Below, one piece after another: positions 9,592 to 12,500 of a stretch of 64,000 nucleotides of DNA. This DNA is from Escherichia coli (GTDB taxonomy: Bacteria > Pseudomonadota > Gammaproteobacteria > Enterobacterales > Enterobacteriaceae): the NCBI RefSeq assembly GCF_024700885.2, contig NZ_CP117016.1. One strand, written 5' to 3'. Position numbers: made by a program. Within the stretch, counting starts at the first letter, position 1, and every line of letters starts with the position of its first letter.

Positions 9592-12500
9592 TTAAACAAA
9601 AAAACGAAGCAAGCATACGCCTGATGGCGGTCCAAAAAAAAGAGTCATCTTGCCTAAGAGTATTGGCAGGATGGTGAGATTGAGCGACAATCGAGTTACA
9701 CCGTCGCTTAAAGTGACGGCATAATAATAAAAATATGAAATTCCTCTTTGACGGGCCAATAGCGATATTGGCCATTTTTTTAACGCAACATCTGCGGCAA
9801 ATTCCCTTCTCCATACAGGTGTAGTGCACCGACTGCGACCACATAGCGCCCCGGCGGCATGGCGCATAATTTGTCCCGCCAGGCGAGATTTCGCTGATGC
9901 ATCAGCACATCGTACAGCGACTGACTGAACGTATTAGGCAGCGTTATTTCATTATTTTGCGGCGGCGCATTCAGCCACCAGCTCATCATTTGTTGCAGCA
10001 ACCGTGCATTGGTGTGCCAGTGGGTCAGCGTATCGTCCAGCAGCGCCAGTCCGTTGTCAGGGAGCTGGAGCAACATGGCAATCTGGTTTTCTGCCCCTTC
10101 CAGTTCAATCACGGGTTTATGTTGTTGCTTCGCCGCCTGCAATAGCTGGTAATCGATACCGTATTCTGCCCGCAGCCCCAGTTTTTGTGCCTGCGTCGCC
10201 TGAAGAACCATCGCGATTTGCCACAGCGGTTGGGTAGAAAAGAGCGACGGAGAAATGCCCATCTCCTGGCTAATGTGCTGCAGATTTTGGAGTTGCTCCT
10301 CGCTAATGCGCTCTTCCAGCGCCTCGCAGGCAGGCAAATTAGCAAAAGGCGTATCGCTGGTGGAAACATCCGCCTCGACGATCAGCGCATCGGCGTTTTT
10401 GAGCTTTTTGAGCAAACGGGTGGGCAGGGGAGCCATATCGTGGCTGCCCATATGAATACTGCCAATCAGATGAAAATGGCGATTGCCGGGAAGAGAGATA
10501 TCGATAGCAGGCCAGGTGTAATGATTACCGCGCAGCGCGGCCCAAAGCGTTTTTACCCGGTACAACAGATCCATACGACCTCCCTTTGTGAAATATCATG
10601 CTAGCGCGCGGGGAGGGATGGCGCAAATGGAGTTATGAGGCTTGTTCAGTGGTAGCTTAAATATGATCAAAAAATTGTTTTTGCTTTGAAACGAAAGACT
10701 GCACCGGTGTTGGTGGCGTCAAAATCGCCGAGGCGTTCCCTGAAGGCCGGGGCAGCCCACATGGATGTGGGCTGAGGGCGCGTTTTACAGGGATGTTACC
10801 TCGCGCCCGACCCGGTAGCCGCAAGGGATAAGCTGAGGGTACCGCGCAGCGGCGATTTTGTTCGCCAGAGCCCGGGGGCGCAGGGGGCGGCGGCGATTGG
10901 CCGCCCCCTGCGCGCTCCCTGCGCCAGTCACTTTATATGGCATTACTCATAAAAGGAGCGCAACAAGAACTGGATCTCACAAACGCATTAAGTAAATACC
11001 AATCATTCCTTCGGTTTAAACCGCAGCAACCGGTTGGCGTTACTCACTACGGTAATCGACGAGAGCGCCATTGCCGCTCCGGCGACCACCGGGTTAAGCA
11101 GCGTACCGGTGAACGGCCACAAAATACCGGCGGCGACCGGAATACCGATACTGTTGTAGATAAACGCGCCGAGCAGGTTCTGCTTCATATTGCGCAGCGT
11201 TGCGCGGGAAATCGCGAGCGCATCCGCAACACCCATCAGGCTATGGCGCATCAGGGTAATCGCCGCGGTTTCAATGGCAACATCACTGCCGCCACCCATC
11301 GCAATACCGACATCCGCCTGAGCCAGCGCTGGCGCGTCGTTAATGCCGTCGCCCACCATTGCCACCTGACGTCCTTCACTTTGCAGACGTTTGATCGCTT
11401 CGGCTTTACCGTCCGGCAGCACCCCAGCTATCACCTCATCAATCCCTGCTTCTTTGGCGATCGCATTGGCGGTGGTTGGGTTATCCCCGGTTAGCATCAC
11501 CAGACGATATCCCGCTTTATGCAGGCGTTGCAGCGCCGCCACGCTATCACTACGCAATGGATCGCGTACAGCCAGCAGGGCTACCGCTTTCCCGTCAACC
11601 GCCAGCAGCACAGGCGTTGCCCCTTGCGATGCCTGAGCTGAAATATCTGCCTCAATCGCTTTAGTATCAACTTGCTGGTCATTTAACAGCGCCTGATTGC
11701 CCAGCAATACCGCATGACCTTCAGCTTCACCGCTCACACCCAGCCCGCGCAATGTGCGGAAACCGTTGACCTGCGGTAGCTGCATATCACCTGCTTTATC
11801 GAGGATCGCCCGTGCCAGCGGGTGGCTGGAACCTTGCTCCAGCGCCGCCGCCAGACGCAATGCTTGCGCTTCATCAACATCAGCAAATGTTTTTACTGCG
11901 ACAACCTGCGGCTTCCCTTCGGTCAGCGTCCCGGTTTTATCGAACACCACGGTGTCGAGCGTACTGGCGCGTTGCAGCGCGTCGGCGTCCCGCACCAGCA
12001 CACCAAACTCAGCCGCCCGCCCGACGCCCGAAATAATCGACATCGGCGTCGCCAGTCCCAGCGCACACGGACAGGCGATAATCAGCACCGTGGTGGCAAT
12101 CACCAGGGTATAGACAATCTGCGGTGCCGGACCAAAGAAATACCAGATTGCCGCACTGATCAGCGCAATGACTACCACTACCGGCACAAACACGGCGGAG
12201 ATTTTATCCGCCAGTTGACCGATTTCTGGCTTGCTGCTCTGGGCCTGTCGCACCATGCGAATGATCCGTGACAGCGTAGTATGGCTGCCGACCGCACTGG
12301 CACGAAACAGCACACTGCCGTCCTGTACCACTGTCCCGGCATGGACGCTATCGCCTTCGCCTTTTTGCTGCGGGATAGGTTCGCCCGTCAGCATCGCTTC
12401 ATCCAGCCACGCTTCGCCTTGAGTAATCTCACCATCTACCGGCACACGGTCGCCGGTCGTCAGGCGCAGTAACATACCTGGCTGAACATCTGCCAGCGGC

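What the first reader, a model, noticed from the sequence alone, without database searches (positions are those of the whole stretch)
9698..9781. ChiX sRNA terminator overlaps the ybaP stop codon
The sRNA 3' stem-loop and T-run (9750-9781) overlap the last codons and stop of the convergent ybaP gene at 9780-9782. The hairpin therefore probably terminates both transcripts, and ybaP read-through would be antisense to ChiX. This is a conserved arrangement and is noted mainly as a check on the sRNA call.
Basis: partly seen in the sequence, partly recalled or inferred. Interest (0 to 1): 0.2.

Follow-up and report, generated by a model that had tools for sequence, protein, structure and literature searches.

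The report
ChiX sRNA terminator touching ybaP stop
This is the well-known E. coli small regulatory RNA ChiX, whose last two bases overlap the stop codon of the oppositely oriented ybaP gene, an arrangement already annotated in E. coli K-12 and ordinary.

Summary
The sRNA call and its boundaries are correct. Window 9698-9781 (+) matches Rfam sroB (ChiX/MicM/RybC) end to end at 81.1 bits against a threshold of 44. It aligns base for base with K-12 chiX (507204-507287) apart from one substitution. Its 3' end corresponds to the Term-seq 3' end mapped in K-12 at 507287.

ybaP (9780-10574, minus strand, 264 aa, TraB/GumN family) ends in TAA at 9780-9782. The overlap is therefore 2 nt: the last two T of the T7 run. 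It does not include "the last codons". The hairpin (9754-9773) lies outside the ybaP coding sequence.

The arrangement is conserved. Of 88 sampled Enterobacterales species with chiX next to ybaP, 64 have exactly this 2-nt overlap and 4 have a 1-nt overlap.

The claim that the hairpin terminates both transcripts is not supported. On the minus strand the hairpin is followed by CGUCAAAG, the complement of the ChiX seed, with no U tract. Published Term-seq lists no minus-strand 3' end there.

The read-through documented in published data runs the other way. Plus-strand transcription continues antisense into ybaP and is limited by Rho near K-12 507468.

Verdict: already known, low interest.

The parts
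9663..9691 (+). sigma-70-type chiX promoter (TTGGCA, 17-nt spacer, GACAAT). The -10 hexamer ends 6 nt before the sRNA 5' end.
   Evidence: One search found this as the only promoter-like site in 9000-11000. The sequence is identical to K-12. This is a consensus match only; the start site was not measured here.
9698..9781 (+). chiX (sroB/MicM/RybC) small RNA, 84 nt.
   Evidence: Rfam RF00368, 81.1 bits against a gathering score of 44, full length. Aligns to K-12 chiX 507204-507287 with one mismatch at 9734. Present once in 5422 of 5426 complete E. coli genomes.
9701..9719 (+). 5' stem-loop of ChiX (8 bp, 3-nt loop).
   Evidence: Minimum-free-energy and centroid structures agree. The sequence varies between genera while a hairpin-forming stretch is visible by eye at this position in alignment A2. 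Covariation here was not counted.
9720..9737 (+). A/U-rich single-stranded linker. It contains the one difference from K-12 (T at 9734, A in K-12).
   Evidence: The exact window variant of ChiX is in 382 of 5422 E. coli genomes.
9738..9753 (+). Seed region. Positions 9742-9753 (UCCUCUUUGACG) are exactly complementary to the chiP leader at -19 to -8, covering the ribosome-binding site.
   Evidence: A 12-nt exact complement, CGTCAAAGAGGA, is found in the K-12 chiZ/chiP leader. These positions are upper-case, highly conserved, in the Rfam consensus.
9754..9773 (+). Terminator hairpin (8-bp stem GGCCAAUA/UAUUGGCC, loop GCGA).
   Evidence: -11.0 kcal/mol. Across 85 distinct sequences 98.7% of cells pair, and 22 cells carry compensatory double changes, against 5.3 +/- 1.8 in shuffles.
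9775..9781 (+). U7 tail of ChiX. The last two T (9780-9781) are shared with the ybaP stop codon.
   Evidence: Sequence. The Term-seq 3' end in K-12 at 507287 corresponds to window 9781 (PMC7815308 Supplementary file 1).
9780..10574 (-). ybaP coding sequence (264 aa, TraB/PrgY/GumN family). The TAA stop is at 9780-9782.
   Evidence: Pfam PF01963, 147.7 bits against a cut-off of 26.8. RefSeq annotation in identical genomes.
9097..9576 (-). ybaK (Cys-tRNA(Pro) deacylase), the other flanking gene, which defines the synteny.

Best explanation
The feature is the chiX gene of an E. coli strain.

Shown or directly supported:
- ChiX is an 84-nt RNA with a sigma-70-type promoter match at 9663-9691. In K-12 it is very abundant.
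- Its single-stranded seed (9742-9753) is exactly complementary to the ribosome-binding region of chiP.
- It ends at a canonical Rho-independent terminator: an 8-bp hairpin followed by A and U7.
- The ybaP gene converges on it. Its TAA stop is the complement of the last two T of the T-run plus the next A, so the two genes share 2 bp and have no spacer.

From the literature on K-12, not tested for this strain: ChiX is Hfq-dependent and acts in trans. Pairing with chiP represses it, and the chbBC intergenic RNA and ChiZ act as sponges that release the repression.

Inferred:
- The terminator works efficiently in the ChiX direction only.
- RNA polymerase coming from ybaP meets a hairpin with no U tract, because the conserved ChiX seed occupies that position on the other strand. 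It is therefore probably not released there by the intrinsic mechanism.
- Such polymerases are more likely stopped by head-on traffic from the very busy chiX promoter, by Rho, or both. The hairpin would then serve at most as a pause site or a barrier to 3' exonucleases for ybaP mRNA.
- A small fraction of plus-strand transcription passes the ChiX terminator, runs antisense into ybaP, and is limited by Rho about 180 nt downstream.
- The zero-spacer layout is an inherited compact arrangement. There is no evidence that it is regulatory.
For: Identity and boundaries:
- Rfam hit, 81.1 bits against 44.
- One-mismatch alignment to annotated K-12 chiX with the same 2-nt overlap with ybaP.
- Fold z-score of -3.8.
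- Promoter match whose -10 hexamer ends 6 nt before the 5' end.
- 12-nt exact seed complement in the chiP leader. I estimate the chance expectation at about 5e-4 for these sequence lengths.
- ybaK/ybaP synteny.
- Compensatory changes in the terminator stem.

3' end: Term-seq in K-12 places it at 507287 (+), which is window 9781, with about 445,000-552,000 reads. The authors class it 'primary chiX, antisense ybaP'.

Terminator direction:
- The scan finds a terminator on the + strand only.
- After the stem, 7 of 8 nt are U on the + strand and 1 of 8 on the minus strand.
- No minus-strand 3' end is listed between K-12 507000 and 507499 in the three Term-seq conditions.

Plus-strand read-through: a Rho termination region at 507468 (+), antisense to ybaP. 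Read counts upstream/downstream are 1492/22 untreated and 2100/115 with bicyclomycin, giving a Rho score of 3.71 and p = 4e-10.

Conservation: 64 of 88 species have the exact 2-nt overlap and 4 have a 1-nt overlap, even though the YbaP tail after the NLP motif varies from 4 to 8 residues.

Against: - Nothing contradicts the ChiX identity.
- The absence of a minus-strand 3' end may only reflect low ybaP expression, below the Term-seq threshold.
- Hairpins without U tracts can still pause or terminate polymerase at low efficiency.
- No data from this strain were available. All expression evidence comes from K-12, whose ChiX differs at one linker base.
- The species sample is biased.
- RIL-seq tables list minus-strand fragments over chiX, at about 0.2% of ChiX reads. 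These could be real anti-ChiX RNA.
Confidence: 0.85

Rival explanations
1. One reading: the hairpin is a true bidirectional intrinsic terminator that releases both ChiX and ybaP transcripts.
For: The stem is nearly palindromic and folds almost as well on the minus strand: -10.1 against -11.0 kcal/mol. It sits immediately after the ybaP stop. No better terminator for ybaP lies nearby; the only other minus-strand candidate before ybaK is a weak 5-bp stem at 9623-9610. Shared terminators between convergent E. coli genes are the subject of published work.
Against: There is no U tract on the minus strand: the tail is CGUCAAAG, 1 U in 8. The scan does not call it a terminator. No minus-strand 3' end appears in Term-seq. 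The minus-strand tail cannot evolve a U tract because it is the complement of the conserved ChiX seed.
Confidence: 0.15
2. Functional antisense coupling. ybaP read-through RNA is a perfectly complementary cis-antisense partner of ChiX that sponges it or triggers RNase III cleavage. Alternatively, ChiX pairing or ChiX read-through regulates ybaP.
For: The geometry allows 84 nt of perfect complementarity. RIL-seq tables list an Hfq-associated RNA mapped to the minus strand at K-12 507215-507289, labelled 'ybaP.EST3UTR'. Plus-strand read-through antisense into ybaP exists and is limited by Rho. The zero-spacer layout is retained in 73% of sampled species despite variable YbaP tails.
Against: The minus-strand reads are about 0.2% of ChiX reads. 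Their start positions stop at 507289 rather than extending into ybaP. The authors themselves treat them as ChiX. This pattern fits a strand artefact of an extremely abundant RNA. About 20% of species have inserted 3-274 nt between the genes, and Proteus has chiX without ybaP, so coupling is dispensable. The two papers found that name both genes do not discuss any link between them.
Confidence: 0.07
3. The hairpin and T-run are merely the ybaP 3' region or a chance palindrome, and there is no sRNA.
For: RefSeq automated annotation of the genomes identical to the window lists no ncRNA here.
Against: The Rfam match is full length at nearly twice the gathering score. K-12's curated annotation includes chiX. 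Term-seq shows a massive 3' end. A promoter match, seed complementarity and stem covariation are all present.
Confidence: 0.01

Closest known systems
ChiX (MicM, RybC, SroB; Rfam RF00368) of E. coli K-12, gene b4585
   Same: Same locus (ybaK-chiX-ybaP) and same 84-nt length. 83 of 84 bases are identical. The promoter region, seed and terminator are identical, and so is the 2-nt overlap with the ybaP stop.
   Different: One substitution in the A/U-rich linker: window 9734 is T, K-12 has A. This variant is in 382 of 5422 E. coli genomes and in the E. albertii locus L005 sampled. It lies outside the seed and both stems, so no functional difference is expected. That expectation is an inference.
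Shared (bidirectional) terminators of convergent E. coli gene pairs; collision model of bioRxiv 10.1101/2022.10.23.513370
   Same: One hairpin lies between two convergent transcription units with overlapping ends. A hairpin could pause polymerase from either side, and one partner is very highly transcribed.
   Different: From my own knowledge, typical bidirectional terminators have an A tract on one side of the stem and a U tract on the other, so that each strand reads hairpin-then-U. Here the upstream side is the ChiX seed, so the minus strand has no U tract. No minus-strand 3' end is on record.
Intrinsic terminators of Hfq-dependent sRNAs (stem-loop plus a U tail of at least 6, the Hfq proximal-face binding module)
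   Same: An 8-bp stem with 4 G-C pairs followed by A and U7. The 3' end maps at the last U.
   Different: Nothing notable, except that the last two U are templated by bases that also encode the stop codon of a convergent gene.

Membership tests
ChiX / sroB sRNA (Rfam RF00368) | Covariance-model score at or above the family's gathering score over the full model | tested here: met
   81.1 bits against 44, model positions 1-83 of 83, E = 2.8e-10. Reproduced.
ChiX / sroB sRNA (Rfam RF00368) | Location between ybaK and ybaP, convergent with ybaP | tested here: met
   ybaK 9097-9576 (-), chiX 9698-9781 (+), ybaP 9780-10574 (-). Same as K-12. ybaP lies downstream in 88 of 93 sampled chiX loci.
ChiX / sroB sRNA (Rfam RF00368) | Single-stranded seed complementary to the chiP (ybfM) leader at the ribosome-binding site | tested here: met
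   12-nt exact complement (ChiX 9742-9753 against chiP -19 to -8), tested on the K-12 chiP leader. The seed is unpaired in the predicted fold. The chiP gene of this strain is outside the window.
ChiX / sroB sRNA (Rfam RF00368) | Own promoter and a defined 84-nt transcript | tested here: inconclusive
   A consensus promoter match lies at the right distance, and the K-12 Term-seq 3' end equals window 9781. No expression data exist for this strain, and the 5' end was not measured here.
ChiX / sroB sRNA (Rfam RF00368) | Hfq-dependent repression of chiP, relieved by the chbBC and ChiZ sponges | not testable with these tools
   Known for K-12 and Salmonella from the literature cited in PMC7815308. 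RIL-seq shows ChiX chimeras with chbC-chbB, chiZ and proQ on Hfq in K-12.
Rho-independent (intrinsic) terminator, + strand | G+C-rich stem-loop immediately followed by a U tract, with an RNA 3' end in the tract | tested here: met
   8-bp stem with 4 G-C pairs, 4-nt loop, 7 U in the next 8 nt. Stem covariation is present. The K-12 3' end is at the last U.
Bidirectional intrinsic terminator | U tract after the hairpin on both strands | tested here: not met
   The minus-strand tail is CGUCAAAGAGGAAUU, with 1 U in the first 8 nt. The scan does not call it a terminator.
Bidirectional intrinsic terminator | Mapped RNA 3' ends on both strands at the hairpin | tested here: inconclusive
   A + strand end is present. 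No minus-strand end is listed between K-12 507000 and 507499 in three Term-seq conditions. ybaP may be expressed too weakly to pass the threshold.
TraB/PrgY/GumN family (YbaP) | Pfam PF01963 above its gathering score | tested here: met
   147.7 bits against 26.8, residues 30-264.

The most novel reading that the evidence does not exclude
Transcription of ybaP that runs past its stop codon would produce an Hfq-associated RNA perfectly antisense to ChiX. This would be a third, cis-encoded sponge or RNase III trigger for ChiX, alongside the chbBC intergenic RNA and ChiZ. The strongly conserved zero-spacer layout would then be kept to couple ybaP expression to ChiX activity. The minus-strand 'ybaP.EST3UTR' fragments in published RIL-seq tables would be its trace.
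Probability: 0.06. Interest if true: 0.45.

Novelty: already known. Interest (0 to 1): 0.1.

Why it matters
It matters mainly as a quality check: the sRNA call, its strand and both boundaries are right.

Two practical points follow.
- The 2-bp overlap and antisense layout confuse automated annotation. RefSeq records of identical genomes list no chiX. One RIL-seq study had to relabel 'ybaP.EST3UTR' as ChiX by hand.
- The terminator is a clear example of how one gene's function can limit another's termination. The conserved sRNA seed occupies the place where a U tract for the convergent gene would have to be.

Neither point changes what is known about ChiX.

Tried and rejected
- Terminator scoring formula. 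I computed a d'Aubenton-Carafa-type terminator score from a formula recalled from memory. It gave a negative value even for the proven ChiX terminator, so the formula or its energy scale is not calibrated here. I discarded the score and kept only the U counts and hairpin energies.
- Whole-sequence RNA duplex prediction between ChiX and the chiP leader. It produced an implausible long-range structure that was only marginally better than shuffles (9 of 500 shuffles as good). I relied on the 12-nt exact complement instead.
- Other published 3'-end data for ybaP. Dar & Sorek 2018 (PMC6061677) has no supplementary files held. The SMRT-Cappable-seq supplements (PMC6131387) mention none of ybaP, chiX or ybaK. 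Ju et al. 2019 (SEnd-seq) is not held.
- Phrase searches in the RIL-seq supplements for ChiX-ybaP.EST3UTR chimeras found nothing, probably because the table columns are separated by tabs.
- The minus-strand fold of the ybaP 3' region as a whole is no more stable than shuffles (z = -0.2). Beyond the shared hairpin there is no sign of a structured ybaP 3' UTR.

Full report
**Observation.** The window around the finding reads ...GACGGGCCAATAGCGATATTGGCCATTTTTTTAACGCAAC....

- A scan of the whole window against Rfam finds sroB (RF00368, the family of ChiX/MicM/RybC) at exactly 9698-9781 on the + strand. The score is 81.1 bits against a gathering score of 44, the match covers model positions 1-83 of 83, and E = 2.8e-10. 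A permissive rescan of 9400-11100 gives the same result.
- The 84-nt RNA folds into a 5' stem-loop (9701-9719), a long unpaired A/U-rich stretch that includes the seed, and an 8-bp hairpin (9754-9773) followed by A and U7 (9774-9781). The energy is -23.9 kcal/mol, z = -3.8, and none of 200 shuffles folds as well.
- The ORF at 9780-10574 on the minus strand encodes 264 aa. It is a TraB/PrgY/GumN family protein: PF01963, 147.7 bits against a cut-off of 26.8. RefSeq names it ybaP in E. coli genomes that are 100% identical over 9550-9900.
- Its TAA stop occupies 9780-9782.

The overlap is therefore real, but it is 2 nt (9780-9781) and lies inside the stop codon. The hairpin is downstream of the ybaP stop, so no sense codon is overlapped.

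**Comparison with the reference.**

- The curated K-12 MG1655 record annotates chiX at 507204-507287 (+) and ybaP at 507286-508080 (-). This is the same 2-nt overlap.
- An alignment of window 9577-9830 with the K-12 stretch is gap-free. Three positions differ: one inside ChiX (9734, T here and A in K-12, in the linker) and two synonymous-type changes in the ybaP end.
- ChiX is present once in 5422 of 5426 complete E. coli genomes. The exact window variant is in 382 of them.
- A sigma-70-like promoter (TTGGCA, 17-nt spacer, GACAAT; 9663-9691) ends 6 nt before 9698.
- The seed segment 9742-9753 is an exact 12-nt complement of the K-12 chiP leader at -19 to -8. ChiX pairing with the chiP 5' UTR is documented by compensatory mutations in work cited in PMC7815308.

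**Experimental 3' end (literature, K-12).** Term-seq of Adams et al. 2021 (PMC7815308, Supplementary file 1) lists a 3' end at 507287 (+), with about 445,000 and 552,000 reads in the two entries shown. The authors class it 'primary: chiX; antisense: ybaP'. That position corresponds to window 9781, so the transcript really ends at the last U and the 2-nt overlap holds at the RNA level.

**Does the hairpin terminate both transcripts?**

- On the minus strand the hairpin still forms: -10.1 kcal/mol against -11.0 on the + strand. But it is preceded by A7 and followed by CGUCAAAGAGGAAUU. Only 1 of the first 8 nt is U, against 7 of 8 on the + strand.
- The consensus scan calls a terminator on the + strand only.
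- The minus-strand tail is the complement of the ChiX seed. That seed is among the most conserved positions of the family (upper-case in the Rfam consensus), so a U tract cannot evolve there.
- In the Term-seq tables no minus-strand 3' end is listed anywhere from K-12 507000 to 507499 in the three growth conditions. This is negative evidence only, because ybaP may be too weakly expressed to pass the threshold.
- A published model (bioRxiv 10.1101/2022.10.23.513370) proposes a different mechanism for convergent E. coli pairs. The shared hairpin pauses polymerases, and head-on plus rear-end collisions complete termination, more efficiently for highly expressed genes.
- ChiX has a very high Term-seq read count. 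My inference is that collisions, Rho, or both are the more likely way ybaP transcription is stopped. The hairpin would act at most as a pause site or exonuclease barrier.

**Read-through in the other direction.** The same paper's Rho table (Supplementary file 2) lists a Rho termination region at 507468 (+), antisense to ybaP. Read counts upstream/downstream are 1492/22 untreated and 2100/115 with bicyclomycin. The Rho score is 3.71 and p = 4e-10. So a small fraction of plus-strand transcription continues past the ChiX terminator into ybaP antisense, and Rho limits it. That these transcripts start at the chiX promoter is my inference from their position.

**Conservation.**

- I scanned one genome per species (GTDB collection) for the seed pattern AAATTCCTCTTTGACNGG.
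- Of these, 93 have the hairpin plus T-run of a real chiX. The rest are chance matches in unrelated phyla.
- tblastn with the window's YbaP finds ybaP convergent and adjacent in 88 of the 93.
- In 64 of the 88 the stop is a TAA sharing exactly 2 nt with the T-run. These include Escherichia, Salmonella, Citrobacter, Klebsiella, Raoultella, Enterobacter, Kluyvera, Cedecea, Shimwellia and Pluralibacter, and also Serratia, Yersinia, Rahnella, Mixta, Winslowiella and some Buttiauxella.
- In 4 Pantoea species a TGA shares 1 nt.
- In 2 species the stop is lost and the ORF runs into chiX: 87 nt in Phytobacter massiliensis and 17 nt in Enterobacter sp. ENT03.
- In 18 species there is a spacer of 3-274 nt. 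In the four Proteus species chiX has no ybaP beside it.
- Among the 64 species, the YbaP tail after the conserved NLP motif varies from 4 to 8 residues, yet the ORF always ends at the T-run.
- The terminator stem shows compensatory changes (A-U to G-C at two pairs, 22 cells against 5.3 +/- 1.8 in shuffles) with 98.7% of cells paired.
- Caveats: the seed's invariance in this sample is by construction of the search pattern; the sample is truncated; and related species are not independent observations.

The spacers and the Proteus case show that the overlap is not essential.

**Unresolved side observation.** RIL-seq tables of McQuail et al. 2023 (PMC10954441) contain an RNA1 called 'ybaP.EST3UTR', mapped to the minus strand at 507215-507289, in chimeras with ArcZ and SdsR.

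- In one library it has about 9,800 fragments, against about 5.3 million ChiX (+) fragments, or roughly 0.2%.
- The authors 'considered' it to be ChiX.
- The read starts mirror ChiX and do not extend into the ybaP coding sequence. That pattern fits a strand artefact of a hyper-abundant RNA better than ybaP read-through, but I could not settle it.
- It is the only hint for the more novel reading, a cis-antisense partner of ChiX. I rate that reading at about 6%.

**Comparison with known systems, and verdict.**

- Every defining feature of ChiX that can be tested in sequence is met: model score, synteny, seed complementarity, terminator, and a consensus promoter match (promoter function was not measured).
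- Hfq dependence and regulation cannot be tested here and rest on K-12 literature.
- The feature fails the sequence definition of a bidirectional intrinsic terminator, because there is no U tract on the second strand.
- The overlap itself is already present in the K-12 annotation.

Interest is low.

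Noticed in passing
window 10647-10998 (between ybaP and copA): K-12 has ybaQ plus three REP-type repeats here. The window instead has about 350 nt of unrelated sequence, so ybaQ is absent. Its core of about 270 nt is an unannotated repeat found at a median of 3 places per genome in 5425 of 5426 E. coli genomes, at about 94% identity. A match covering at least 80% of the 361-nt query is found in 349 genomes. There is a weak, sub-threshold Rfam TwoAYGGAY match at 10719-10858 (+): 31.5 bits against a gathering score of 43. The window contains no second copy.
   Followed up: partly
window 3944-4021 (+) and 41638-41715 (-): Two matches to Rfam naRNA4 (RF02564, REP-derived 'nucleoid-associated RNA'), at 73.0 and 71.9 bits against a gathering score of 59.5. 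These are ordinary REP/BIME-type repeats.
   Followed up: no
K-12 507215-507289, minus strand (equals window about 9709-9783, minus strand): Published RIL-seq tables (PMC10954441) list Hfq-bound fragments on the strand antisense to ChiX, labelled ybaP.EST3UTR and chimeric with ArcZ and SdsR. They amount to about 0.2% of ChiX reads, and the authors relabel them as ChiX. Whether this is a real antisense RNA or a strand artefact is unresolved.
   Followed up: partly
L024 about 824-910 (Phytobacter massiliensis); L110 3976-3992 (Enterobacter sp. ENT03): The base after the ChiX T-run is G instead of A, so the TAA is lost. The ybaP reading frame then continues antisense through the whole chiX gene (87 nt) in L024, or into the terminator hairpin (17 nt) in L110.
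   Followed up: partly
L047, L083, L092, L099 (Proteus species): These loci carry a chiX-like gene with the same seed and terminator but a longer, different 5' part, and no ybaP homologue downstream. The synteny is not universal.
   Followed up: no
window 9623-9610 (-): A weak terminator-like site on the minus strand (5-bp stem followed by CTTCGTTTTT), between the chiX promoter and the ybaK start codon at 9576. It lies in the presumed ybaK leader or promoter region. It could stop any ybaP read-through, or it could be a chance match: 4 sites were found against 2.7 expected.
   Followed up: no
K-12 507468 (+), about window 9962 (+), inside ybaP antisense: A Rho termination region on the ChiX strand about 180 nt past the ChiX terminator, with a Rho score of 3.71 (PMC7815308 Supplementary file 2). 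It indicates leaky ChiX termination backed up by Rho.
   Followed up: partly
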